Origin: Candidatus Altimarinota bacterium
GTDB lineage: Bacteria; Patescibacteriota; Gracilibacteria; JANQMV01
Reading direction: 5' to 3'
Length of the DNA stretch: 64,000 bases
NCBI GenBank assembly: GCA_028279865.1
Contig: JANQMV010000010.1
Coordinates: forward strand, 3,630 to 67,629
The position numbers and the translations under genes were made by a program. The notes beneath the pieces are model-generated. The model saw only the letters and a list, made by a program, of their open reading frames with translations, ran no database searches and was not told the DNA's origin. How positions within the stretch are numbered: position 1 is the stretch's first letter; every line of letters begins with the position of its first letter. Below are positions 24,782 through 63,715 of this stretch, in pieces.

Positions 24782-24840
24782 GCGGGTATAGTACAGTGGC
24801 TAGTACGTGTCCCGTATTGCGGGACAACGCTGAGATTGAG
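24782..24840 (+). pseudogene. Truncated, rearranged copy of tRNA-Gly
   Basis: Bases 24782-24809 are identical to the first 28 nt of the intact tRNA at 25109. A hairpin, GTCCCGTATTGCGGGAC, replaces the anticodon region. CAACGCTGAGATTGAGTT then resembles CAACGCTAAGACACGAGTT of the tRNA. No T-arm or 3' acceptor strand follows. Confidence 0.5.
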
Positions 24841-24860
24841 TTTTACTAAATAGGGGATTC

Positions 24861-25118
24861 ATGGAAAAATTCACTGTTTACATTCTTAAAAGTCAGTTAC
24901 GTGGTAAGCATTATATCGGTTATACTGTTGATATAAAGAAAAGATTAAAAGAGCATAACGAAGGTTTGAATAGATCGACAAAATATGGTGTTCCTTGGGG
25001 TATCGTTTACACAGAGGATGGTTTTAGAACTAGGTCGGATGCAATCAAGAGAGAGCGAGAGATTAAAAGTTGGAAAGGAGGAATAAAGTTTAAGTTATTG
25101 TTTAACCAGCGGGTATAG
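24861..25118 (+). CDS. Small GIY-YIG nuclease-family protein (YhbQ/URI-domain type)
   Basis: 85 aa. FTVYILKS...HYIGYT...RLKEHNEG...REREIKSWKG. Its last 10 nt, including the TAG stop, overlap the tRNA-Gly acceptor stem. Confidence 0.85.
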   Translation: MEKFTVYILKSQLRGKHYIGYTVDIKKRLKEHNEGLNRSTKYGVPWGIVYTEDGFRTRSDAIKREREIKSWKGGIKFKLLFNQRV

Positions 25119-25183
25119 TACAGTGGCTAGTACGTGGCGTTGCCAACGCTAAGACACGAGTTCGATTCTCGTTACCCGCTCCA
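25109..25183 (+). tRNA. tRNA-Gly (anticodon GCC), CCA encoded
   Basis: Hand-folded cloverleaf. Acceptor GCGGGTA/TACCCGC, D-arm GTAC-AGTGGCTA-GTAC, anticodon arm TGGCG-TTGCCAA-CGCTA with GCC at 25142-25144, T-arm ACGAG-TTCGATT-CTCGT, then discriminator T and CCA. Confidence 0.9.
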
Positions 25184-25256
25184 AGCTCTTGAACAAGGAG
25201 TTTTTCGACGTGGTGAAAGGCTTGGACGGCAACCCCGCTAAGCGGAACAAAATGTG

Positions 25257-25269
25257 GTTACCCGCTCCA
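25257..25269 (+). repeat. Exact 13-nt copy of the tRNA-Gly 3' end (GTTACCCGCTCCA)
   Basis: Identical to 25171-25183, lying 73 nt downstream of the tRNA. Confidence 0.7.
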
Positions 25270-25459
25270 TGTAAGAGAAACTGCTTCTGAAGGCATTTTT
25301 TTGTTTAAGCTTAGTATTTATTGTCGCGTAGTTGTGAAGAAAATCTGCTTTTCGAAATGACATAATATTGATTAAGTTGCTTTTGTTTAGGGAAGAAATA
25401 TGTAAAAAAGACAAGAGGGCTAAATAATCAGGTTTGTAAGATGTTTTATCGCAAAGATA

Positions 25460-38210: not shown

Positions 38211-39581
38211 ATGCAAAAAACAAAATTAAAAATGGGGATTATTATTTGTTTTGCTCTTGCAATTTTTACTGGTGCGCAAGCAGCTGATTTTCCGAACGAC
38301 TTAGTTTTAAATCCGAGCAGTGTTTATTTCTCAAAAGAGATTCCCATTGTTGATTCAAATCTTAGAATTTATGCGAGTGTGACAAATAATTCTGCGCAGG
38401 ATCTTTCGGGTACTGTTAAATTTTATGACGAAAAAATGCAAATGCAAATTGGTGTTGATCAGCCTATTTCCGTGTTGGCGGGAAGTACGGATGATGTTTT
38501 TGTTGATTTTCAAATTAAAGGTTACGGAGATCATCCTATTGCAGTGCGTGTGATTCCTTGGTCTGTAGATGGTGATAATCCGGATAATAACAAAGTAATA
38601 AAAAATGTTTTTGTTGATTATGATACCGATGGAGACGGAATTCCAAACAGTCAGGATATTGACGATGACAATGACGGTTGTAATGATGTTGATGATGATT
38701 TACCTTATGATAAGTCTGATTGTAAAGACACCGATGGTGACAAAATCGGTGATAAAATTGATCCGGATGATGACAATGATGAACTTTTGGACATTGAAGA
38801 ACTTGAAAAAGGCACTGATCCTCTTTTATACGATACCGATGGAGACGGCATTAATGATAAAGATGATCTTTATCCACTGGATAAAACAAAAAGCGCCGAT
38901 ACCGACGGAGATGGCATTGCAGACGAGGAGGATAGTGATGATGATAATGATGGATGTCCCGATTCGGAAGACCATTTTCCCTTGAATGCCGCGGAATGCT
39001 TAGATACTGATGGAGACGGAATCGGCAACAATCAAGACGATGATGATGATAACGATGGACTAAAAGACTTTGAAGAAGAGAGCATAACTTCTACCGATCC
39101 GCTTTTGTATGACACGGATGGAGATGGTGTTAATGATAAAGATGATGCTTTTCCATTGGATCCAAATGAGTCAGTCGATAGTGACCAAGACGGGCTTGGA
39201 GATAATGCTGATCCAAATGATGAAAATGCTGGTCCGATTGCTGTTCTTTATACAACTACTTTAATCACTAAAGCAGGTAAAGCCGTTGAATTCGATGCGA
39301 CTGCTTCGATTGATTCAGACGGTACAATTGTAGATTTTGAATGGGATTTTGGAGATTCATCTCCAAAAAAGAAAGGTCAAACCATTAGTCATATTTACGA
39401 AGAACCGGGGAACTATCTCGTGAGTTTGAAGGTGACAGATGATAAAGAAGAAAGCCGAATCAAAACAGTTGAAATGATCGTAAAAAGGGATTTAATGAAA
39501 GTCTATGTCTTAATTTCTTTTGGATTAGTGCTTCTTTTCATTGCAGGCTTGAAGAAAATTGTTGATGGTGTGGAGGATTAG
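38211..39581 (+). CDS. Secreted protein with thrombospondin type-3 calcium-binding repeats, a PKD domain and a C-terminal TM anchor
   Basis: Signal peptide. Repeated DTDGDGIxNxxDxDDDNDG units. PKD signature FDATASIDSDG...WDFGD...HIYEEPGNYLVSLKVTD. Terminal hydrophobic helix. Confidence 0.8.
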   Translation: MQKTKLKMGIIICFALAIFTGAQAADFPNDLVLNPSSVYFSKEIPIVDSNLRIYASVTNNSAQDLSGTVKFYDEKMQMQIGVDQPISVLAGSTDDVFVDFQIKGYGDHPIAVRVIPWSVDGDNPDNNKVIKNVFVDYDTDGDGIPNSQDIDDDNDGCNDVDDDLPYDKSDCKDTDGDKIGDKIDPDDDNDELLDIEELEKGTDPLLYDTDGDGINDKDDLYPLDKTKSADTDGDGIADEEDSDDDNDGCPDSEDHFPLNAAECLDTDGDGIGNNQDDDDDNDGLKDFEEESITSTDPLLYDTDGDGVNDKDDAFPLDPNESVDSDQDGLGDNADPNDENAGPIAVLYTTTLITKAGKAVEFDATASIDSDGTIVDFEWDFGDSSPKKKGQTISHIYEEPGNYLVSLKVTDDKEESRIKTVEMIVKRDLMKVYVLISFGLVLLFIAGLKKIVDGVED

Positions 39582-42164: not shown

Positions 42165-42196
42165 AGTTTTTAAGCTTTAAAAGAAAAAGGGCATGT

Positions 42197-42231
42197 TATT
42201 CTGAACGTAGTCTACGAAGTGAAGAATCTCT
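42197..42231 (-). repeat. Short hairpin repeat, subfamily GAGATTCTTCACT...TTCAGAAT
   Basis: The reverse complement reads GAGATTCTTCACT-TCGTAGACTACG-TTCAGAATAAC. Its termini match the copy at 49184-49227. Confidence 0.55.
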
Positions 42232-42849: not shown

Positions 42850-44355
<1,506 letters not shown>

Positions 44356-44565
44356 TTATGAAAATCAATAAATATAGTTTTTGTCATGTTATCAAAGAAT
44401 TAAGTTAAAGACAAATTATTTTTTTGCAAATAATCTGTTTGATTTGTAATTAGTTTTTGTTAAACTCTTTTCCTAAGTTTTTATTTTAGTTCGCGAACTT
44501 GCTGAGCTAGAGTTAGCTTAGTAGGTTCCTTAACAGTATGATTTTTAAATTAGAGGAGGTATTGA

Positions 44566-44895
44566 ATGAAATTTAAGAAACTTGATCCTGGAAACTATGG
44601 ATCACAAATGCTTGACCCAAATGTTCCGGCACTTTTATTTATCAGAAATTCTACATGTAATGGAGTAAAGGCTATGTTGAATTTCTTAACGTCAACTTTT
44701 GTGAGTGAAGAATTTGGATCTATTTTATTGTTTGAAGTTGATGCTGATGACAAGGCTTATCTTGAATTTTTGAAAGATCAAAAAATTACTCATGTACCAA
44801 CAATTATTCTTTATAACGAAAGTTCTGAGATAGAAAGAATTGTTGGAGTTGTAACGATTGAAAGAATTAAGAAGTTTTTGAGACAAGTTTTTTAA
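44566..44895 (+). CDS. Thioredoxin-fold protein lacking a CxxC active site
   Basis: SD GGAGG. The C-terminal HVPTIILYNESSEIERIVG pattern is Trx-like. The active-site position reads STCNGV. Confidence 0.5.
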   Translation: MKFKKLDPGNYGSQMLDPNVPALLFIRNSTCNGVKAMLNFLTSTFVSEEFGSILLFEVDADDKAYLEFLKDQKITHVPTIILYNESSEIERIVGVVTIERIKKFLRQVF

Positions 44896-45011
44896 GATAA
44901 GTCCATTATACCAGCTTTTGTAGATTCTAAAAGCTTTTTAGCGCCTGACAAAAAACTATTGCTGATTATCCCAAAAGATTAAAAAATCTTACTTAAGTTA
45001 TGGATTTTTCT

Positions 45012-45046
45012 GGGGCAGGTCTGTATGACTGCCCCTCGTTTTTTGT
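45012..45046 (+). terminator. Rho-independent terminator
   Basis: GGGGCAG / CTGCCCC stem followed by TCGTTTTTTG. Confidence 0.6.
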
Positions 45047-45063
45047 TGTGCTTAATACTTGAT

Positions 45064-45435
45064 TTACAAAAGACCGAGTTTTTTCATTTCTTCATTAGGA
45101 TCCCAGACTTTTCCAGTGTCTTCATCTCGAAGCAAAGGTGCAAGTATTTTATTTTCTGGTATAATTTTTTTCATATAAGCAATTTCGTCAATGGAAGGAT
45201 TTCTTTGAAAAGTATCTCTAAAGCTAGACTCTAAGTCCTTTTGGCTTGGATAAAGAGTCTTTTCATAGCGAGTCACACAATCTCGGTTCCATTCTCCTGC
45301 TCTTTGACGAACTACTTTATCCACAACTTGCGCATATCCTTCATGCTGCAAGGGCATTTTGTCTATTTCAATTAATGTTGGTTCAATATCGTTTGTCATA
45401 CAGAAAGAATTGTAATAGTTTTTAAATTCTCGCAT
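45064..45435 (-). CDS. Hypothetical protein
   Basis: 123-aa ORF with non-repetitive composition and a TAA stop. No family recognised. Confidence 0.4.
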   Translation of the reverse strand: MREFKNYYNSFCMTNDIEPTLIEIDKMPLQHEGYAQVVDKVVRQRAGEWNRDCVTRYEKTLYPSQKDLESSFRDTFQRNPSIDEIAYMKKIIPENKILAPLLRDEDTGKVWDPNEEMKKLGLL

Positions 45436-45577
45436 TTATATTGTAAAATAGAAAGTAAAATTTTTCTAAAACTACAACAAAATTAATTATTGAACAAGTA
45501 AAAAGTATGACAATTTTGTTTTCTTGCTGATAAAACTAATCAGCTGTAAACTTTTCTCAGACTAAAAAAATACGAAA

Positions 45578-47026
45578 ATGAAAATTCATTTTATTGGAAT
45601 CGGGGGAATTGGGATTTCTGCTTTGGCGCGGATTTTTCGGGAAAGGGGGGATGAGGTGAGTGGTTCTGATGCGTCTAAATCTGCTTTGACGGATGATTTG
45701 GAAAAAATCGGAATAAAAGTTTTTGAAGGACATGCCGCAGAAAATGTACCTGATGATGTAGATAAAGTTATCTATACCGAAGCTATTCCAAAAAACAATC
45801 CTGAATACCAAAAATCGGAAAAGCTAGGTGTTCCTTTTTTGACTTATTTTCAGGCTTTAGGAGAATTTAGCAATGAATATCGTGTAATTGCAATTGCAGG
45901 AACACATGGAAAAACAACAACAACCGCAATGACTGCACTTGCTTTAATTGAAGGAGAAATTGATCCAAACGTAATTATCGGAACCAAAGTCGCCGAGTTT
46001 GAAAATCGAAATGTGAGAATCGGAAAAAGTGATTATTTAGTCGTAGAATCTTGTGAGTACCGAGAATCTTTTTTGAATTTAACACCACAAATTTTAGTGA
46101 TCACAAATATCGAAGCTGAGCATTTGGATTATTACAAAACCGAAGAAAATTATTTAAATGCGTTTAAAAAACTTTGTCAGAAAGTACCGAGAAGCGGATA
46201 TATAGTGACAATTGATGGGGATGAAAATGTGGATAAAGTTGTGGCGGGAGTGGAGGCGAATGTGCTTAAAGTACAAATTAAAAATGAAAAATTAAAAATT
46301 ATAAATGAACAAAAAATGCTGACTCAAGCAAACTTGGCGGAAGATTTCTCCACTGCACCCCGTACTAATTTAAATTCTGAGGATCGGGATTTCGGTCGAA
46401 ATGACGCAACTAAAAATATATTGAATCAGCATTCCAAACAACCAACTACTAACTACCAACTACCAACTCTTCAGGTTCCGGGAGAGCATTATAAGATTGA
46501 TGCAGCTTTGGCGATGGCTGTGGTAACTTTGAGTGGGGTGGAGGAGGAAGTTTTGAAGAAAGCGTTGGCGAGTTTTAAAGGAACGTGGAGACGCTTTGAA
46601 CGAAAAGGGGAGAAATATGGAGTACTTGTGATTGATGATTATGCGCATCATCCGACCGAAATTCAGGCGACTTTGCGTGGGGCACGTGAGATGTTTGATG
46701 AAAAGAAAATTATCTGTGTTTTTCAACCTCATCAATACTCTCGTACACGCTTGTTGTTCAATAATTTTGTTCATTCTTTTGTTGATTGTGATGAGGTAAT
46801 CATCCCAAACATCTATAAAGTTCGTGATACAGAAGAGGATGTAAAAGCAGTTAACGCTGCAATGCTCGTCAACGCTATTGACGACTATAGTGGAAATGCC
46901 ACTTTTGGAGACGGATTTGAAAATACCGTTAAATTGCTGGAAGAAAAACTCCAAGCCGGAGATGTGTTGATTACAATGGGAGCCGGGCCGGTGAATGAAG
47001 TGGGGGAAATGTATTTGGAAAGCTAG
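45578..47026 (+). CDS. murC: UDP-N-acetylmuramate--L-alanine ligase carrying an in-frame repeat insertion
   Basis: MKIHFIGIGGIGISALA, GTHGKTTTT, ESCEY, VPGEHYKIDAALA and DDYAHHPTE. About 65 extra codons (46271-46468) are made of repeat modules. Confidence 0.9.
   Translation: MKIHFIGIGGIGISALARIFRERGDEVSGSDASKSALTDDLEKIGIKVFEGHAAENVPDDVDKVIYTEAIPKNNPEYQKSEKLGVPFLTYFQALGEFSNEYRVIAIAGTHGKTTTTAMTALALIEGEIDPNVIIGTKVAEFENRNVRIGKSDYLVVESCEYRESFLNLTPQILVITNIEAEHLDYYKTEENYLNAFKKLCQKVPRSGYIVTIDGDENVDKVVAGVEANVLKVQIKNEKLKIINEQKMLTQANLAEDFSTAPRTNLNSEDRDFGRNDATKNILNQHSKQPTTNYQLPTLQVPGEHYKIDAALAMAVVTLSGVEEEVLKKALASFKGTWRRFERKGEKYGVLVIDDYAHHPTEIQATLRGAREMFDEKKIICVFQPHQYSRTRLLFNNFVHSFVDCDEVIIPNIYKVRDTEEDVKAVNAAMLVNAIDDYSGNATFGDGFENTVKLLEEKLQAGDVLITMGAGPVNEVGEMYLES
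46275..46407 (+). repeat. Repeat modules inside murC
   Basis: 46275-46299 (AAATTAAAAATGAAAAATTAAAAAT) is identical to 52203-52227. 46340-46407 has termini AAGATTTCTCCACT ... CGGTCGAAATGACGC, shared with 49231-49291 and 51680-51744. Confidence 0.8.
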
Positions 47027-47226
47027 TTTATAGCTTTCATCGCGGCTTTTCTGGAATCTGTCTTTGGATTAATTTGGGCATGACGTTTATTTCACAAGAG
47101 GTATAAAAAGATTACGCATCAAGTGTGGAATGACAGAAACACATTGCATCTAAAAGAGAAAAACGTTACTTTTTTCAAATTTTAGCGTAATCTAATTTAG
47201 TAATAATTTTCTAATCTATTTTTAAA

Positions 47227-47613
47227 ATGAAAAAAACAAACTTTTTTTTATCGCTTGCTCTGATGCTGATTTTTTTAAGTGCTTGTAATGATCCTGTTAA
47301 TCTTGAAAATAAAATTACTACTTTTCAGGAGTGTGTTCAGCAAGGTGGAAATATCGCAGAAAGTTATCCTCGACAATGTATTTTAAACGGAGAAACATAC
47401 GTAGAAGAAATTTCAGAAAATTATCAGACACTTTGCGAAAATTTAGATGGAACTTGGTTAGAAGAATCTCAAGAATGTGAAAATATTTCTCAAGAAGAAT
47501 GTGAAAATATTGTTGGGACTTTTGATGGGTGTGCTTCAGCATGTAGAAATGATCCGAACGCAATGATGTGTATTCAGGTTTGCGTTCCAGTCTGTAGTTT
47601 TAAAACAGAATAA
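47227..47613 (+). CDS. Small Cys-rich lipoprotein
   Basis: Lipobox FLSAC. 12 further Cys in 108 aa. Confidence 0.55.
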   Translation: MKKTNFFLSLALMLIFLSACNDPVNLENKITTFQECVQQGGNIAESYPRQCILNGETYVEEISENYQTLCENLDGTWLEESQECENISQEECENIVGTFDGCASACRNDPNAMMCIQVCVPVCSFKTE

Positions 47614-47694
47614 ATCAATTAATCTAATATACAAAAAGATATAATATTGTTTTAAACAGGGAAAAATGTTAGATTACTGCCCCAAATTATTTAA

Positions 47695-49053
<1,359 letters not shown>

Positions 49054-49112
49054 TCACCCGTGGGCGGGTAACTTGCACTAAAAAATAATAAATTATAAAT
49101 TACCAAAAGGAT

Positions 49113-49291
49113 TGTCATTCTGAGGAATTATCCTTTAAAAAATATAAAAGAGAATGACAAAGAATCTCTTTTGGATAGAGACAGAGATTCTTCACTGCTC
49201 CCGCAAACGGGATTCCTTCAGGATGACAAGAAAGATTTCTCCACTATATCATTCTTCGTTATACTACGAATGCTTCCGGTCGAAATGACGC
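49113..49291. repeat. Cluster of three short hairpin repeats in the obg-pth spacer
   Basis: 49113-49168 is in reverse orientation (GAGATTCTT...TCAGAATGAC). 49184-49227 reads GAGATTCTTCACT...TTCAGGATGAC. 49231-49291 reads AAGATTTCTCCACT...CGGTCGAAATGACGC. Confidence 0.75.
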
Positions 49292-49334
49292 TGTTCGACT
49301 AGGAACTAACGTCTAGTGGCTAATAGCTTCTCTT

Positions 49335-49865
49335 ATGAAATTAATTTTCGGTTTAGGAAATCTGGGGACAAAGTATGAAATTACACGCCATAATGTGGGG
49401 TTTTTGTTTTTGAATTATTTTGCGCAGAAATTTGATTTTCCAACTTCCAAGACAGAGTCAAAATTTAAGGCGGAAATTTCGGAGGGGAATTTGAATGGTG
49501 AGAAGGTTTTATTAATCAAGCCTTTGACGTATATGAATTTATCCGGAGAGTCTGTTCAGAAAATTCAGAGTTTTTATAAAGTGGCGAAAGAGGACATGAT
49601 TTTTGTTTATGATGATAAGGATATGGAGTTTGGAAAAATTCGTTTTCGGGAAGAGGGGAGTAGTGGCGGTCACAATGGGGTGAAGTCTTTGATTTCAGTT
49701 TTGGGAAAAGAATTTAAGAGAATTAAAATTGGTGTGGCAAATGATGATTTGCCAAAATACAGAGATACGGCAGATTTCGTTTTGGCGAAGTTTAAGAAGG
49801 AGGAATTGGATGAATTGCCGTTTGTTTTTGAAGATGCTTTGGAAATTATAAATGAGAAATTATAA
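49335..49865 (+). CDS. pth: Peptidyl-tRNA hydrolase
   Basis: LIFGLGNLGTKYEITRHNVGF...GGHNGVKS. Confidence 0.9.
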   Translation: MKLIFGLGNLGTKYEITRHNVGFLFLNYFAQKFDFPTSKTESKFKAEISEGNLNGEKVLLIKPLTYMNLSGESVQKIQSFYKVAKEDMIFVYDDKDMEFGKIRFREEGSSGGHNGVKSLISVLGKEFKRIKIGVANDDLPKYRDTADFVLAKFKKEELDELPFVFEDALEIINEKL

Positions 49866-49876
49866 ATTATTTTGAG

Positions 49877-50491
49877 ATGGCAAAGTCTTTAATTGTTTCG
49901 GTTGATGAATGTAAAAAGTATTTTCCGAAATATAACCCAAAGCATGCGGAAAAATATCATAAAGATTCTGCGAAATTGGCAGATAAGTGGTTTGAATACG
50001 CTGTAAAATTTATTCCTACTAAAGTTGTTTTATTAGCAGGAGGTTCTGCGTCTGGTAAAACTGAATATTTATCTCAACTTGTGCAGAAAATTAAAGAAGG
50101 GGGAATTTTTTACGATGGAACTTTGCCAAGTTACAAAGGAGCAGAAATAAAAATTAAAAATACCTTAAAATTTAACAGAAACCTTGAAATTCATTTTGTT
50201 CTTCCTGATGATATTAGGCGGGCTTATGTCGGTTTTTTGGAGAGAGAAAGGCAGTTTGATATTTCTCATTTTTATAGGACACATATTGATTCTCGCAAAA
50301 CAATTCTGGAAATTTGTAAAAGTGATTTTGAGGTAACTGTTAGGATTTTTGAAAACAAATTTTCAAAAACGGGAAAAACTATGTTTTTTGAAGAAATTGA
50401 GTTTTTTTCAAAAAAATCTAAAATTGATTATTTGGAGTCAATTCAATATAATGAAAGCACTTTAAAGGATATTATTTTATTTAATGATTAA
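49877..50491 (+). CDS. P-loop kinase/NTPase, zeta-toxin-like (tentative)
   Basis: Walker A VLLAGGSASGKTEYL about 55 aa from the N-terminus. Size and layout resemble zeta/AAA_33-type small kinases. Confidence 0.45.
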   Translation: MAKSLIVSVDECKKYFPKYNPKHAEKYHKDSAKLADKWFEYAVKFIPTKVVLLAGGSASGKTEYLSQLVQKIKEGGIFYDGTLPSYKGAEIKIKNTLKFNRNLEIHFVLPDDIRRAYVGFLERERQFDISHFYRTHIDSRKTILEICKSDFEVTVRIFENKFSKTGKTMFFEEIEFFSKKSKIDYLESIQYNESTLKDIILFND

Positions 50492-50759
50492 GAGGATTAG
50501 ATTAAAAGCATCAGTAAAAAACAACAAGCAGGTTGCTGCCTATAGCAAGGCTGTGCGTTCAGGTGCAAAAATTCAACATGTTGTTCCAAAAGATAAAAGT
50601 TGGGTGGTGAAAAGCACTAGCTCAATAAAAGCAACCAGAATATTTAATACTCAAAAGGAGGCTATTGATTATGGTAAAAAGGTGGCGAAAAATAACAAAA
50701 CGGATGTTATTGTTTATGGAAGAAATGGAAAAATCAGAGAAAGGACATCTTATAAATAA
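50484..50759 (+). CDS. DUF2188-family protein
   Basis: HVVPKDKSWVVKSTSSIKATRIFNTQKEAIDYGKKVAKNNKTDVIVYGRNGKIRE matches the DUF2188 pattern. Its start overlaps the upstream stop (ATGATTAA). Confidence 0.6.
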   Translation: MIKRIRLKASVKNNKQVAAYSKAVRSGAKIQHVVPKDKSWVVKSTSSIKATRIFNTQKEAIDYGKKVAKNNKTDVIVYGRNGKIRERTSYK

Positions 50760-50761
50760 AA

Positions 50762-52402
50762 TTGTTTCCCCAAGGATTTCTAGATAAATACCAGGCGCAA
50801 CTTTCGAAGGCTGATTTTGATCAGTTTCTTGAGTTTTGCCAAAAACCTTTGCGTAAAAGTATTCGAGTTAATACTTTGAAAATTTCAGTGGAAGATTTTC
50901 AAAAAATTGCTGAGGAAAAAGGTTGGGAATTAGAGCCGATTCCTTGGTGCGAAGAAGGCTTTTGGATTGAGCGTGAGAATCGGGATGAGCCACTGGGAAA
51001 TTCAATTGAGCATTTTTTGGGACTGTTTTATATCCAGGAAGCTTCTTCGATGATTCCACCGGAAATTCTAAATCCTCAGCTTGGAGAAAGAGTCTTGGAC
51101 ATGGCAGCTGCTCCGGGAAGTAAGACAACCCAACTTGCTGCCAAAATGCAGAATGAAGGAGTGTTGGCTTCAAATGAGCCGGTGGTGAAAAGGATAAAAG
51201 GCATGGTTTCAAACCTTGAAAGGTTAGGTGCAAGTTGCGTTGTGGTAAGTCGCAAAGATGGTCAGTTTTTCGGAGAAAATACACCTAATTTTTTTGATAA
51301 AATTTTACTTGATGCTCCATGTACTGGGGAGGGGACTGTGCGTAAAGATCCGAAGGCTCTTGAAAACTGGAGTCAGGAAAATATTGAGGGAATGGCACGT
51401 TTGCAGAAACAATTAATCAAGTCCGCTTTTGAAGCCTTGAAACCGGGAGGAGTGATGGTTTATTCGACGTGTACTTTGGCGAGAGAAGAGAATGAAGAGG
51501 TGGTGGAGTATTTGTTGGAAGAGTTTGAGGGGAATGCGGAATTGGTGCCTTTTTCTTTAAAGCCCCCTTTGAGGGGGGTGGGGGGTGTTGAGGATGGCGA
51601 AGTTCAAAGTGAAGAAAATTTCGTCATTCTGGCTTCTAGCGCAGCAAGAAAAAGTCCAGAATCTAAATCTCAAGTTGAGGAAGATTTCTCCACTACTCCC
51701 GCACAAGATAATTTAAAAGGAGCGGGATTCGGTCGAAATGACGCAGTATGTGGAATGATGACTATTTGGCCGCAGCTTTTTGATAGTGAGGGTTTTTTTG
51801 TGGCAAAAATTCGTAAGAACGAAAAAACAGAATTTAAAAAATTGAAAAAGAAAAAACATTTTACTTCTAAGTATCGGGTGCTGCGGAATAATGAGGTGGA
51901 GTTGATTCAGGAATATTTGGAGGAGCGTTTTGCTTATACTAGGAAATTGGTGAATCTCTTTAAACTTTATCAAAAGGAAAATCAGGTTTACTTTTGTCCG
52001 AAAGAAATTCGGGAAATTGATAAAAGAATTTATTTGGAAAGACGTGGTTTTCATGTTGGTGAATTTTTACACAAAAGAAGTGGGATCACAGAGTTTAAAA
52101 TCCATCATTTGGGGATAACGATTTTGGGAGATAAATTTACAAAAAATATTTTAAAATTAAGAGAAGGCGAGGTTAAAAAGTATCTTAAGGGGGAAAGTAT
52201 TGAAATTAAAAATGAAAAATTAAAAATGAAAAATGGGAGAACCCCCTTGAGGGGGCAGGGGGGTGTTGTTGATGATGAAGTTCAAAGTGATAATTTGAGT
52301 AATGGTGTTGTTGTTTTGAAATACAGAGGTGTTGTTTTGGGGAAAGGTTTGTTGAAGGGGGAGAATGTTAAGAATCAAATTCCGCGTTATTTGATTTGGT
52401 AG
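50762..52402 (+). CDS. rsmF: NOL1/NOP2/Sun-family rRNA m5C methyltransferase (RsmF/YebU-like) carrying two in-frame repeat insertions
   Basis: TTG start. FYIQEASSMIP, DMAAAPGSKTTQLA, LLDAPCTGEGTVRKDP, YSTCT and EGFFVAKIRK. Extra segments at about 51551-51750 and 52203-52290. Confidence 0.8.
   Translation: MFPQGFLDKYQAQLSKADFDQFLEFCQKPLRKSIRVNTLKISVEDFQKIAEEKGWELEPIPWCEEGFWIERENRDEPLGNSIEHFLGLFYIQEASSMIPPEILNPQLGERVLDMAAAPGSKTTQLAAKMQNEGVLASNEPVVKRIKGMVSNLERLGASCVVVSRKDGQFFGENTPNFFDKILLDAPCTGEGTVRKDPKALENWSQENIEGMARLQKQLIKSAFEALKPGGVMVYSTCTLAREENEEVVEYLLEEFEGNAELVPFSLKPPLRGVGGVEDGEVQSEENFVILASSAARKSPESKSQVEEDFSTTPAQDNLKGAGFGRNDAVCGMMTIWPQLFDSEGFFVAKIRKNEKTEFKKLKKKKHFTSKYRVLRNNEVELIQEYLEERFAYTRKLVNLFKLYQKENQVYFCPKEIREIDKRIYLERRGFHVGEFLHKRSGITEFKIHHLGITILGDKFTKNILKLREGEVKKYLKGESIEIKNEKLKMKNGRTPLRGQGGVVDDEVQSDNLSNGVVVLKYRGVVLGKGLLKGENVKNQIPRYLIW
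51563..51744 (+). repeat. Three repeat modules inside the rsmF-like gene
   Basis: 51563-51612 (CCCCCTTTGAGGGGGGTGGGGGGTGTTG...GAAGTTCAAAGTGA) is about 85% identical to 52242-52290. 51623-51663 is GTCATTCTGG...CCAGAATC. 51680-51744 is AAGATTTCTCCACT...CGGTCGAAATGACGC. Confidence 0.8.
52203..52290 (+). repeat. Second repeat insertion inside the rsmF-like gene
   Basis: A 25-nt exact match to murC 46275-46299, followed by a second copy of the CCCCCTTGAGGGGG-CAGGGGGGTGTTG module. Confidence 0.8.
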
Positions 52403-52532
52403 CTTCGGCTTCGCTCAGCTACCAATACCAAATTCGGCTTTGTCCAGCTGTCAAATTTTGTTCTCTGCAAGAAGTCGAAGTGAGCGGAAAGTGAGATCTC
52501 ATAGTTTTTTGCTTTTTTGAAAAAAAACTTAT

Positions 52533-61648: not shown

Positions 61649-63715
61649 ATGCAAAATATAAAAAGAACAACCCTTACTTGTGCTTTATTAATAAGTTTAT
61701 TTGGTTTTTGAGAAATTGTCTATGGATTTTCACAGGTTATTACTGTCGGAGGAGAGCAAGTTAGGGTAACAGGAGCAAGTCAGCAACAGTTAAATGATTG
61801 GGTCAACCACGCTAGATCTACATGAAGCTTCTCGCAAGCGCGAAGTGATTTGCTAAGATGAGCAGATCATGCTGGAGGAGGGGTCGCGTATAATTCAGCA
61901 ACAAGAGTTACTTGTGTGAATTGAGCCGGTTTAGAGTTAATACCCTCACAACCGCCACCACCACCAACTAGATATACGCATTATACGACATGATCATGGT
62001 GAAGTTGTTCCGGTTCTTGGTCGAGTTGGAGAATTAGTGGCAGTCAGAAATGTCGTACACTTTCGGGTACACAAAGTCGCTCGGTAACTTCTTATACCAG
62101 TTATAATGGACCGAATCAAAGTCGACCTTCTAGCTCGAGACCTTGTAATGATTCTCAATGTGTTTCAGTTCCAACTTATACACGTTATTCTACATGACCA
62201 TGGTGAAGTTGTTCCGGTTCTTGGTCGAGTTGGAGAATTAACGGCAGTCAGAAATGTCGCACACTTTCTGGTACGCAAAGCCGTTTGGTAAGTTCTTATT
62301 CAAGCTATAGCGGACCAAGCCAAAGTCGACCTTCTAGCTCAAGATCTTGTAGTGATTCTCAATGTGTCCCACGTCCGAGGTATACGCATTATACGACATG
62401 ATCATGGTGAAGCTGTTCCGGTTCTTGGTCGAGTTGGAACTCAAGCAATCATTGTAGAACTTATTCAGGTACTCGCAGTCGTTCGGTGACTTCTTACACA
62501 AACTACACCCCTCCGAATGAAAGCCGACCTTCTAGCTCGACATCTTGCACTCGTTTGGAATGCGATAATACCTCTCCAACCTGTCAAATTGCCTTAAGCA
62601 CAACTCAATGGTCTAATTCCAACATTACCGCGACTGCGAGTTGTCATGAAACAGGTTCTCCTGTGTCAGGTTGTACGCAATCAACTCAAAATCAAACACT
62701 GACATCCAATGGTCAAGTTGCGAATTTTACAGTTTCAGATAAGGCAGGTAATCAAGTTAGCTGCCAAAGTAATGCGGCAAAAATTGACAAACTCGCGCCA
62801 AGCTGTGCCGTTGCCTTAGAACCAAGTGGTTGGGTGGACGAGAGTGAAGAGGCTAAAGTGGTTGCGACATGTACTGATCAGAATGCATCCAGTTCTTCAG
62901 GTAATTCAGGTTGTCTACAAAACACCAAAACAGAAGAGATAGCAGAAGCGAGAGAAGTTACCTTGACTGTCGCAGACCAGGCTGGAAATACCACAACTTG
63001 CGAATCTGTTTATCCAAAGATTCATTATGTTGAAATCCGAGGTTTACAAAATACAGAACCTAGTCCTGCTCTTAAGCAAGAATTAACGAATATAATTCGA
63101 CAAAATGTTGCAGATTTAACTCGAAACCAATTTCCAAATCCGAATAACAATATTTTAAATTATAATCTGAATAATAGTAGTATTGCTTATTATGAAGGAG
63201 ACGTCAGTTTGGATGCTTTTACCGTTTCCGGCAAAAAGACAATAATTGTTAAGGGCGGTAATTTATACTTAAAATGAAATGTAACTTATACCGATGCTAG
63301 TAGCATTTTAGGAATTATAATTTTACAAGATACTGATGGAAATGAAGGTGATGTTTACATAGACAATCAAGCGACAGATGTTCATGCAATTTTATTTTCC
63401 GAAGGTACAATGTTTAGTGTGAGTGGTAACACGAATACGATTATTGCAGATCGAGACAATACACTGATTAATCAGCTTTATTGGAAAGGCAGTGTGATTA
63501 CAAGTAATACGATTTGAGGTTTTAAAGACGGCACGGGCACACGAGAAAATGATTTGAAATATTTCAGGAGCTATCATCCGACGACAGGCGGACAAAAGTC
63601 TGGTGATCCTCAAGGTAGTGAAGCACCGATGATTATAGAGTATGATTCTGGTCTTCAAGGAAATGTTCCATATGGATTTGAACAACCTTCAGGATTTAGC
63701 TTTCAAGGAATTTAA
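61649..63715 (+). CDS. Secreted Cys/Trp/Ser-rich repeat protein. Needs table 25.
   Basis: One frame is open from ATG 61649 to TAA 63713-63715, with 12 in-frame TGA. It contains track ORF 62486-63277. Signal/TM segment TLTCALLISLFGF. Three 68-aa repeats, each with a GSWSSW...C...R.R motif. Confidence 0.7.
61973..62570 (+). repeat. Three tandem 204-nt coding repeats
   Basis: Units start at 61973, 62177 and 62381, each with TATAC(G/A)C(A/G)TTAT.C.ACATGA.CATGGTGAAG.TGTTCCGGTTCTTGGTCGAGTTGGA. The third unit diverges in its second half. Confidence 0.85.

What the first reader, a model, noticed from the sequence alone, without database searches (positions are those of the whole stretch)
46271..46468. 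Essential gene murC carries an in-frame insertion of about 65 codons built from dispersed repeat modules
Between the conserved blocks ...VEANVLKV and LQVPGEHYKIDAALA, MurC contains IKNEKLKI and AEDFSTAPRTNLNSEDRDFGRNDA. IKNEKLKI is encoded by a 25-nt string (46275-46299) identical to 52203-52227 in the rsmF-like gene. The second stretch (46340-46407) has termini AAGATTTCTCCACT and CGGTCGAAATGACGC, which also flank an internal hairpin in the intergenic copy 49231-49291 and in the rsmF-like gene at 51680-51744. The insert keeps the reading frame and has no stop. This resembles Rickettsia palindromic elements, which colonise coding sequences.
Basis: seen in the sequence. Interest (0 to 1): 0.7.

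Follow-up and report, generated by a model that had tools for sequence, protein, structure and literature searches.

The report
Palindromic repeat inserted in-frame in murC
A short selfish palindromic DNA repeat, of the same kind as the Rickettsia palindromic elements, sits in-frame in a floppy surface loop of the cell-wall enzyme MurC (and in two neighbouring housekeeping genes) of a candidate-phyla-radiation bacterium; this is a known phenomenon seen in a new lineage.

Summary
Both termini (AAGATTTCTCCACT, CGGTCGAAATGACGC) occur three times, always paired and on the + strand. MurC does carry a lineage-specific, stop-free insert.

The anatomy needs correcting:
- The insert is about 47 codons (residues 245-291, nt 46310-46450), not 65.
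- Only 46340-46407 is a recognisable repeat.
- IKNEKLKI is a native beta-hairpin. Its 25-nt match to rsmF is a shared period-7 (AAAAATK)n array.

The repeat is a REP-type palindromic element with a CGTC/ATGAC tag. This is the superfamily that Di Nocera et al. assign Rickettsia RPE-4 and RPE-6 to. The same termini turned up in at least 120 genomic stretches from many phyla, including inside dnaX, alaS and other real genes.

Two syntenic relatives show recent turnover. One has no insert. The other, 99-100% identical in nearby genes, carries a different module at the same murC site. The shared rsmF copy diverges at about the third-codon-position (near-neutral) rate.

Best reading: a tolerated, translated passenger in a permissive loop. 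It is a new member of a known kind. How it moves is unknown.

The parts
45578..47026 (+). murC CDS (482 aa), intact UDP-N-acetylmuramate--L-alanine ligase
   Evidence: Three Mur ligase Pfam domains. All invariant residues are present. AlphaFold2 mean pLDDT 92. Foldseek TM-score 0.86-0.87 (normalised by target length) to H. influenzae MurC 1p31/1p3d.
46275..46306 (+). Period-7 A-rich tandem array (AAAAATK)n encoding IKNEKLKI. This is a native beta-hairpin of MurC, not part of the insert. It contains the 25-nt match to 52203-52227.
   Evidence: Tandem Repeats Finder: period 7, 4.6 copies. It aligns with homologous residues in P0003-P0006. Strands 228-235 and 238-243 have pLDDT of about 95 or more.
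46310..46450 (+). Lineage-specific in-frame insert (residues 245-291, 47 codons), predicted to be a disordered excursion from a beta-hairpin
   Evidence: Absent from P0003/L002. P0002/L001 has different content here. pLDDT is 43-69. The surrounding segment is hypervariable, 9-93 aa across 120 homologues.
46340..46407 (+). REP-type palindromic element ('module B', 68 nt), read as EDFSTAPRTNLNSEDRDFGRNDA
   Evidence: Exact termini shared with 49231-49291 and 51680-51744. The same termini occur in at least 120 genomic stretches from many phyla.
46437..46468 (+). Period-7 tandem array (AACTACC)n encoding PTTNYQLPT. It overlaps the 3' end of the insert and runs into the strand that follows; shared with L001.
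   Evidence: Tandem Repeats Finder: period 7, 4.6 copies. A stretch of murC covering this array (window 46424-46470) is 97.9% identical in L001.
48711..48738 (+). Short REP inside obg (AGAGTCCTGCGACAGCCTCAGGATGACA), read as ..ESCDSLRMT..
   Evidence: Present in the window and L001, absent in L002.
49113..49228 (.). Composite palindrome in the obg-pth spacer, made of two REP units head to head: 49113-49167 on the - strand and 49185-49228 on the + strand
   Evidence: The enclosing stretch 49108-49232 folds at -22.3 kcal/mol, z = -4.65, with 0 of 200 shuffles folding as well. L001 carries a different element here. Coordinates.
49231..49291 (+). Intergenic copy of module B, with an unrelated centre
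   Evidence: Exact termini. Absent from L001 and L002.
50762..52402 (+). rsmF-like CDS (546 aa) with two insertion sites
   Evidence: Pfam RsmB/F, RsmF_N and PUA domains. L002 (466 aa) has no insert; L001 (515 aa) has partial inserts.
51564..51612 (+). 'Module A', copy 1 (CCCC..GGGG hairpin followed by GGGGGGTGTTG..CAAAGTGA), read as PLRGVGGVEDGEVQSE
   Evidence: 86% identical to 52242-52290 (family D9). Truncated in L001.
51621..51664 (-). REP unit in antisense orientation inside rsmF
   Evidence: AGATTCTGG..CCAGAATGACGA. The enclosing stretch 51612-51675 (- strand) folds with z = -2.55. A 28-nt core is absent from L001. Coordinates.
51680..51744 (+). Module B copy inside rsmF, in the same reading frame as in murC (EDFST...FGRNDA)
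   Evidence: Shared with L001 at 61 of 66 nt.
52203..52235 (+). Period-7/14 array (AAAAATK)n inside the rsmF site-2 insert
   Evidence: Tandem Repeats Finder: period 14, 2.3 copies, 100% matches.
52241..52294 (+). Module A, copy 2: a clean 54-nt (18-codon) indel present only in the window
   Evidence: Pairwise synteny alignment with L001.
42194..42229 (-). Intergenic REP unit (AGATTCTTCACT..TTCAGAATAACA) between rpiB and rpe
   Evidence: Gene positions from L131.

Best explanation
**What it is.** The murC insert is the footprint of non-autonomous REP-type palindromic elements (CGTC/ATGAC-tagged, the class that includes Rickettsia RPE-4 and RPE-6). They landed in the turn of a peripheral beta-hairpin of MurC, a stretch whose length varies freely among homologues.

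**Why it is open.** The element is open in five of its six reading frames. Selection on an essential single-function enzyme removes any insertion that shifts the frame, adds a stop or hits a structured part. What survives is an in-frame, stop-free piece. It is most likely transcribed and translated as a disordered surface loop with no function of its own.

**The wider pattern.** The same process has decorated obg and rsmF a few kb away and filled the obg-pth spacer. Elements come and go quickly at these permissive sites. Period-7 slippage arrays flank them.

**Shown:** repeat identity, membership of a very widespread family, presence/absence between close relatives, in-frame status, location in a low-confidence loop, near-neutral divergence.

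**Inferred:** translation, lack of function, and the insertion mechanism. That mechanism is unknown. It is probably hairpin-dependent and supplied in trans, or works by recombination or template copying between existing copies.
For: - **Exact paired termini** at three loci on one strand.
- **Family breadth.** The same 22 specified bases flank a variable centre in at least 120 genomic stretches from Clostridia, Bacteroidota, Planctomycetota, Chloroflexota, several candidate-phyla-radiation lineages and others. 37% of centres hold a perfect stem of 5 bp or more, against 6% of shuffles.
- **Copies inside real genes elsewhere:** dnaX, alaS, an MBOAT gene and a prepilin peptidase gene.
- **Comparison with relatives.**
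  - L002 has no insert in murC, obg or rsmF.
  - L001 is 98.9-100% identical in pth, orf204 and DUF2188. It still has a different module at the murC site, a different element at rsmF site 2 and a different spacer element.
  - Two indels are clean: 54 nt and 60 nt.
- **Structure.** pLDDT is 43-69 for residues 245-291 and above 90 for 424 of 482 residues overall. This segment ranges from 9 to 93 aa in 120 homologues. P0021, a MurC from a different lineage, has an independent REP-like palindrome in the same segment.
- **Rate.** The shared rsmF copy differs at 5 of 66 nt (7.6%), against 9.0% third-codon-position divergence in the rest of rsmF. At the amino-acid level it differs at 4 of 24 residues, against 12 of 442.
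- **Literature.**
  - CGTC REPs include RPE-4 and RPE-6 and occur inside ORFs (PMC3733652).
  - In Rickettsia, orthologues hold different RPE groups at one site, and the encoded pieces are solvent-exposed (PMC3767692).
Against: - Only about half of the insert is a recognisable repeat. The flanks (NEQKMLTQANLA, TKNILNQHSK) have no other copy in the sequence examined.
- The murC copy itself folds no better than shuffled sequence (z = +1.2), so its palindromic character has decayed.
- No transposase or any other recurrent neighbouring gene was found in 127 loci that carry the element. No target-site duplication is visible.
- Translation was not observed.
- The genome-wide copy number in this organism is unknown, because only 64 kb was available.
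- Module A and the AATTTAAA-centred form of module B gave no hit in the metagenome collection.
Confidence: 0.8

Rival explanations
1. Exapted loop: the repeat-derived peptide has acquired a function, for example a docking surface for divisome or Mur-complex partners. It is kept by selection rather than merely tolerated.
For: - The insert is kept open in an essential gene.
- Both intragenic module B copies use the same frame, EDFST..FGRNDA.
- The termini are perfectly conserved inside coding sequence.
Against: - The closest relative, L001, has different content at the same site, and L002 has none.
- The shared rsmF copy evolves at about the third-codon-position rate, and its peptide changes about six times faster than the rest of the protein.
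- pLDDT is below 50 for most of residues 261-286, the centre of the insert.
Confidence: 0.07
2. Local loop expansion by replication slippage and low-complexity drift, with no mobile element. The shared strings would be convergent.
For: - Two period-7 tandem arrays bracket the insert, at 46275-46306 and 46437-46468.
- The segment is hypervariable in length across MurC homologues.
- The 25-nt match to rsmF is itself a heptamer array.
Against: - Slippage cannot produce two different exact 14-15-nt termini, paired and in the same order, at three loci.
- It also cannot produce termini identical to those of at least 120 stretches in other phyla.
- Module A indels are discrete 54-nt and 60-nt units.
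Confidence: 0.08
3. The segment is an intervening sequence, removed from the RNA (intron or ribozyme) or from the protein (intein), or bypassed by the ribosome.
For: - The element has conserved ends and a potential hairpin.
- The murC copy happens to contain CTGAGGA...GAAA, which recalls a hammerhead core.
Against: - No Rfam family matches even at E <= 10.
- The hammerhead-like string is absent from the other two copies.
- 141 nt is too short for a group I or group II intron, and 47 aa is too short for an intein. No intein splice motifs are present.
- The frame is kept and stop-free, which removal would not require.
Confidence: 0.03
4. Assembly or binning artefact: a chimeric join through a repeat.
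For: Repeats can mislead assemblers. The source is a metagenome-derived contig.
Against: - A separate Logan assembly has identical sequence over 16.6 kb. It may derive from the same sample.
- An independent JGI metagenome contig (L001) carries module B in rsmF and an insert at the same murC site.
- The ORF is continuous and the protein folds as MurC on both sides of the insert.
Confidence: 0.02

Closest known systems
CGTC-tagged REPs (Di Nocera, De Gregorio & Rocco 2013, PMC3733652)
   Same: - An unpaired CGTC (or TGTC) tag at one end, followed by a stem whose first two pairs are A-T.
- Units often sit head to head, forming larger palindromes.
- Mostly intergenic, with a minority inside ORFs, including replication, repair and tRNA-synthetase genes.
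- No dedicated transposase is known.
- Short relatives here fit closely (L001 rsmF site 2: AGTC + ATTCTGG / CTTGT / CCGGAAT).
   Different: - Module B has a 35-42-nt AT-rich centre in place of a 4-5-nt loop.
- Its stem is only 5 bp before an internal mismatch.
- The tail is CT(T), not CCA.
- The host is a candidate-phyla-radiation (Peregrinibacteria-like) bacterium, outside the five phyla listed in the paper.
- Copy number in this genome is unknown.
[quoted passage not shown] 2013, PMC3767692; the original Ogata et al. RPE papers are cited from my own knowledge and were not read here)
   Same: - In-frame insertion into housekeeping genes without breaking them.
- The ATGAC motif.
- Orthologues carry different element groups, or none, at the same site.
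- The encoded pieces lie in solvent-exposed regions.
- 'Extended' insert sequence surrounds the recognisable element.
   Different: - Direct sequence similarity to RPE consensus sequences was not tested, because no RPE sequence was available to me.
- The elements here are shorter (28-68 nt, against 68-192 nt for the listed RPE lengths).
- The host is unrelated and free of the Rickettsia lifestyle.
- Turnover is visible between near-identical strains, whereas the RPE positions are conserved among spotted-fever-group Rickettsia (PMC3767692).
GTAG REPs / REPINs mobilised by RAYT transposases (from my own knowledge; also summarised in PMC3733652)
   Same: Short hairpin repeats with a conserved unpaired tetranucleotide. 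They are non-autonomous and often paired in inverted orientation.
   Different: The tag is CGTC/ATGAC, not GTAG. No RAYT-like gene, and no recurrent neighbouring gene of any kind, was found.
Bacterial MITEs such as Correia/NEMIS, which can be read through in-frame (review PMC10969869 listed but not read; otherwise my own knowledge)
   Same: Small, non-autonomous and dispersed, sometimes fused to coding sequence.
   Different: No clear terminal inverted repeats of IS type, no target-site duplication and no parent IS were seen.

Membership tests
CGTC-tagged REP superfamily (PMC3733652) | Unpaired terminal CGTC motif (TGTC or CCTC allowed) at one end | tested here: met
   The reverse complement of the 3' end of all three module B copies is GCGTCAT. 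The antisense rsmF unit gives TCGTCAT. The unit at 49185-49228 gives TGTCAT.
CGTC-tagged REP superfamily (PMC3733652) | Stem of 8-9 bp whose first two pairs are A-T | tested here: inconclusive
   The stem starts AT (ATTTC/GAAAT, or ATTCT/AGAAT in sister units). It is 5 bp, then a mismatch, then CC/GG. The short L001 unit has a 7-bp stem.
CGTC-tagged REP superfamily (PMC3733652) | Loop of 4-5 nt | tested here: not met
   Module B has a 35-42-nt centre with its own weak hairpin. Minimal 26-nt forms seen in other phyla, and the L001 unit, do have 4-5-nt loops.
CGTC-tagged REP superfamily (PMC3733652) | Many dispersed copies per genome | not testable with these tools
   Only 64 kb of this genome was available. 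It holds 3 module B copies plus about 5 sister units, all between 42 and 52 kb.
Rickettsia palindromic elements (RPE-4/6/7) | Sequence similarity to the RPE consensus families | not tested
   No RPE consensus sequence was available. Only the ATGAC signature (PMC3767692) and the published assignment of RPE-4 and RPE-6 to CGTC REPs link them.
Rickettsia palindromic elements (RPE-4/6/7) | In-frame insertion in ORFs that leaves the host protein intact | tested here: met
   murC, obg and rsmF all stay open with their domains intact.
Rickettsia palindromic elements (RPE-4/6/7) | The encoded piece lies on the protein surface | tested here: met
   A low-pLDDT excursion between two strands of a peripheral hairpin, within a hypervariable segment. 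This rests on a prediction, not a solved structure.
Rickettsia palindromic elements (RPE-4/6/7) | Insert is transcribed and translated | not testable with these tools
   No expression data are available.
MITE | Terminal inverted repeats, a target-site duplication and a related autonomous IS | tested here: not met
   The termini are only partly complementary (ATTTC/GAAAT). No duplication is seen at the clean indels. No recurrent neighbouring ORF was found.
RAYT-mobilised REP/REPIN | GTAG tag and an associated RAYT gene | tested here: not met
   The tag is CGTC/ATGAC. No recurrent ORF family was found in 127 loci. The window was not screened ORF by ORF against Pfam.
Known structured RNA families (Rfam 15) | Match to a covariance model | tested here: not met
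   Only tRNA-Gly reaches gathering score in the window. Nothing relevant appears at E <= 10 in 46200-52420.

The most novel reading that the evidence does not exclude
The element in murC is one instance of a single REP sequence type. Its termini, and in minimal copies the whole 37-mer, are identical or nearly so across at least a dozen bacterial phyla, including several candidate-phyla-radiation lineages. It still turns over between strains that are 99-100% identical in adjacent genes, and it repeatedly enters essential genes in-frame. If so, there is an unrecognised, very widespread machinery or constraint acting on one short DNA or RNA hairpin: a trans-acting mobilising enzyme or a conserved host factor. 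In small candidate-phyla-radiation genomes such elements would then be a significant source of new surface loops in core proteins.
Probability: 0.25. Interest if true: 0.7.

Novelty: new member of a known kind. Interest (0 to 1): 0.4.

Why it matters
- It extends the 'protein-coding palindrome' phenomenon from Rickettsia and a few other bacteria to a candidate-phyla-radiation bacterium.
- It is an unusually clean natural experiment. Three syntenic genomes show empty, differently filled and multiply filled states of the same sites in murC, obg and rsmF.
- It cautions annotators. Odd peptides such as FGRNDA, SLRMT or GGVxDxEVQSE inside core proteins of metagenome-assembled genomes can be repeat footprints rather than domains.
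- The very wide distribution of identical termini raises an open question: what mobilises or preserves these elements?

Tried and rejected
- **Rfam.** Scans at gathering score and at E <= 10 found nothing relevant.
- **Hammerhead-like reading** of CTGAGGA..GAAA in the murC copy. Rejected because the other copies lack it.
- **Metagenome scans.** The AATTTAAA-centred form of module B and the 3' half of module A each gave 0 hits. Even L001's own metagenome seems not to be in that collection, so this says little.
- **Protein-level searches for the repeat-encoded peptide.**
  - A first call was rejected because max_evalue was out of range.
  - The 62-aa composite returned no candidates.
- **Literature searches** for the element strings found only chance primer matches. 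Nothing on REPs in Patescibacteria was found.
- **Search for a mobilising gene.**
  - All-against-all clustering of ORFs in 127 REP-bearing loci found no family present in more than 6 loci, and none was transposase-like.
  - A small GIY-YIG ORF lies just upstream of a REP in L041 and L087, and about 220 nt upstream of a REP-like remnant in the window. A third locus, L072, also has a GIY-YIG ORF, but not next to its REP. This is too few cases to count as an association.
- **Di Nocera supplements** contain no matching strings.
- **IKNEKLKI as a mobile module** was considered and rejected. It is native in MurC, and the match is a heptamer array.
Full report
**1. Observation**

The ORF 45578-47026 (+) encodes a 482-aa MurC with all three Mur-ligase domains. 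Its closest named homologues are from Candidatus Peregrinibacteria and other Patescibacteria, and the window is 35.6% G+C.

- 46275-46299 equals 52203-52227.
- AAGATTTCTCCACT and CGGTCGAAATGACGC each occur exactly three times: 46341/46393, 49232/49277 and 51681/51730.
- They are always paired, always on the + strand, and occur nowhere else in the 64 kb.
- Shuffles give 0.62 matches for the 15-mer at up to 3 mismatches, against 4 found, 3 of them exact.

A separate Logan assembly is identical to the window over 16,654 nt, including the whole of murC.

**2. What is inserted and what is not**

I aligned MurC with its 14 (A1) and 119 (A2) best homologues.
- The closest insert-free orthologue, P0003, is 68% identical and 435 aa long. 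The window protein is 47 aa longer, and the extra residues lie at this one place.
- P0003-P0006 have LDTKEGKFT, LKVEGDRFWIH, LQIKGDRFW and CIKKDELEI where the window has QIKNEKLKI.
- AlphaFold2 (mean pLDDT 92, pTM 0.90) predicts two confident strands there, 228-235 and 238-243. A low-confidence stretch follows at 245-291 (pLDDT 43-69), and the chain returns to strand at 292-294.
- The model superposes on H. influenzae MurC with a TM-score of 0.86-0.87, normalised by target length.

So IKNEKLKI is native. The insert proper is nt 46310-46450.

Tandem Repeats Finder shows that 46275-46306 and 52203-52235 are both period-7 arrays of AAAAATK. A third period-7 array (AACTACC) lies at 46437-46468, overlapping the 3' end of the insert. 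The 25-nt identity is therefore a match between two heptamer arrays, not a REP-type module.

It is still non-random. The pattern occurs only at these two loci, against 0.19 expected. In both L001 murC and the window's rsmF, the array lies 12-14 nt upstream of a 'module A' unit. This suggests, by inference only, that the array and module A were copied together from murC to rsmF and that module A was later lost from the window's murC.

**3. The repeat**

Module B (46340-46407) has the form AGATTTCTCCACT, a variable centre, then TTCGGTCGAAATGACGC.
- ATTTC pairs with GAAAT.
- Read on the other strand it begins GCGTC-ATTTC.
- Sister units in the window and in L001 use covarying stems (ATTCT/AGAAT, RTCCT/AGGAT) and the same ATGAC end. 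They lie at 42194-42229 (-), 48711-48738 (in obg), 49113-49167 (-), 49185-49228 and 51621-51664 (-, in rsmF).
- The two spacer units form a strong composite palindrome (z = -4.65).
- Module B alone does not fold better than shuffled sequence. Its centre is AT-rich (34-44% G+C) with stems of 4-6 bp.

**4. Relatives elsewhere**

- The hosts span many groups:
  - Firmicutes and Actinobacteria: Clostridia, Coriobacteriia.
  - Bacteroidota: Pedobacter, Flavobacterium, Bacteroidales.
  - Candidate-phyla-radiation lineages: Saccharibacteria, Uhrbacteria, Berkelbacteria, Peregrinibacteria, Peribacteria.
  - Others: Planctomycetota, Chloroflexota, Ignavibacteria, Verrucomicrobiota, Acidobacteriota, Nitrospirota, Alphaproteobacteria, Thermodesulfobacteriota, Treponema and more.
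- The 135 matches share further conserved positions (RCTNCG ... YTYC). Their centres are G+C-rich and variable. 37% hold a perfect stem of 5 bp or more, against 6% of shuffles.
- Some minimal 37-mers are identical between phyla, for example L040 (Competibacteraceae) and L088 (Saccharimonadales).
- Seven IMG/VR viral contigs also carry the pattern.
- About 5% of matches lie inside long ORFs. Pfam confirmed four as real genes: dnaX (L103), alaS (L116), an MBOAT gene (L104) and a prepilin peptidase gene (L072), often with several units side by side.

**5. Comparative evidence for turnover**

Two syntenic contigs were recovered: L001 (MurC 83% identical) and L002 (MurC 68% identical).

| Site | Window | L001 | L002 |
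|---|---|---|---|
| murC hairpin turn | module B | a 60-nt module A; no intact module B | empty |
| obg | short REP | short REP | none |
| obg-pth spacer | three units | a different GTCATCCTGAG...CTCAGCATGAC palindrome | a diverged form of the window's composite palindrome |
| rsmF site 1 | module A + antisense REP + module B | truncated module A + module B | empty |
| rsmF site 2 | heptamer array + 54-nt module A | short REP (AGATTCCGGACAAGCCAGAATGAC) | empty |

Meanwhile pth, orf204 and DUF2188 are 98.9-100% identical between the window and L001. Element content therefore changes faster than point substitutions accumulate.

The rsmF module B copy shared with L001 differs at 5 of 66 nt (7.6%), close to the 9.0% third-position divergence of the rest of rsmF. 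Its peptide differs at 4 of 24 residues, against 12 of 442 elsewhere. That is what relaxed constraint looks like.

**6. Why this site**

The segment between E226 and G302 ranges from 9 to 93 aa in 120 MurC homologues, with a median of 21. P0021, a MurC from a different lineage, carries an independent perfect palindrome, CCTGCCTGCCGGCAGGCAGG, followed by a decayed REP-like end, in the same segment. The site is permissive, and it has been hit repeatedly.

**7. Mechanism**

Shown: everything in sections 1 to 6.

Inferred:
- The element is non-autonomous.
- Only frame-preserving, stop-free insertions in permissive loops survive in essential genes.
- Of the three sense frames, one contains TGA (GG TCG AAA TGA C). 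The coding copies use the other two: GRND in murC and rsmF, and xRMT in obg and at L001 rsmF site 2.
- The insert is translated as a disordered loop.

How the elements move is unknown. No transposase-like or otherwise recurrent neighbour was found in 127 loci, which agrees with the published statement that CGTC REPs lack a dedicated transposase. The co-occurrence of native murC sequence with module A in rsmF hints at copying by recombination or template switching rather than cut-and-paste.

**8. Comparison with what is known**

- Di Nocera et al. (PMC3733652) define CGTC-tagged REPs by a CGTC/TGTC tag, AT-initiated stems of 8-9 bp and loops of 4-5 nt. They found them in five phyla, sometimes inside ORFs, and they equate R. 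conorii RPE-4 and RPE-6 with CGTC families.
- Matsutani et al. [quoted passage not shown]
- The window's elements share the tag, the AT start, the ATGAC motif, the intragenic habit, the site-sharing pattern and the surface location.
- Module B departs from the definition in its long centre and short stem.
- Direct similarity to RPE consensus sequences was not tested.

I therefore file it as a REP of the CGTC/ATGAC kind that works like an RPE. I do not file it as a member of any named RPE family.

**9. Verdict**

The finding is real and correctly interpreted in essence, with corrected anatomy. It is a new member of a known kind, and of moderate interest. The most interesting loose end is the extreme cross-phylum conservation of the termini and the unknown agent behind it.

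Noticed in passing
window 24782-25270: tRNA-Gly(GCC) lies at 25109-25183. Its first 28 nt are duplicated exactly at 24782-24809, and its 3' end, GTTACCCGCTCCA, recurs near 25258-25270. An 85-aa GIY-YIG-like ORF (24861-25118) lies between the 5' duplicate and the tRNA. This looks like a small mobile cassette inserted at the tRNA gene, with partial target duplication.
   Followed up: partly
loci L003-L122 (for example L040 and L088): The REP termini AGATTTCTCY...GGTCGAAATGAC occur in at least 120 genomic stretches from a very wide range of bacterial phyla. Some 37-nt units are identical between phyla. No paper in the library prints these strings.
   Followed up: partly
L103, L116, L104, L072: The same REP type lies in-frame inside dnaX (Saccharibacteria), alaS (Berkelbacteria), an MBOAT gene (Bacteroidia) and a prepilin peptidase gene (Saccharibacteria). 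Several units often sit in one linker.
   Followed up: partly
window 42850-52402 against L001 7801-16545: Identity to the JGI relative is mosaic: DUF2188 100%, orf204 99.8%, pth 98.9%, obg 96.4%, murC 88.8%, IMPDH 78%. This points to recombination between related strains.
   Followed up: no
window 46275-46306, 46437-46468, 49083-49102, 49843-49870, 52203-52235: Period-7 tandem arrays lie inside or next to coding sequence, and two of them bracket the murC insert. In L001 the equivalent murC array has the unit GAATKAC, which resembles the REP end GAATGAC.
   Followed up: partly
L041, L087, and window 24861-25362: A small GIY-YIG ORF lies immediately upstream of a REP unit in L041 and L087, and about 220 nt upstream of a REP-like remnant in the window (25340-25362). 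A further GIY-YIG ORF in L072 is not next to its REP. This is a weak lead to a possible mobilising enzyme.
   Followed up: partly
window 61961-62562: Three tandem copies of a roughly 204-nt unit, 81-91% identical over the best-conserved 70 nt (families D1-D3).
   Followed up: no
window 38494-39232: Diverged 77-140-nt repeats rich in GAT/GAC codons. By eye they encode DTDGDGIPN-like, calcium-binding-type repeats in a large ORF.
   Followed up: no
L114 2051-2148; L015, L036, L078, L081, L084, L099, L117: In some genomes the minimal REP occurs as a head-to-tail array (35-nt period in L114). In others a second, isolated GGTCGAAATGACA end follows about 10 nt after the unit.
   Followed up: no
protein P0105 (MurC homologue, 501 aa): Its called N-terminus begins MGRNDA... 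This is probably an upstream REP read into an over-extended ORF call.
   Followed up: no
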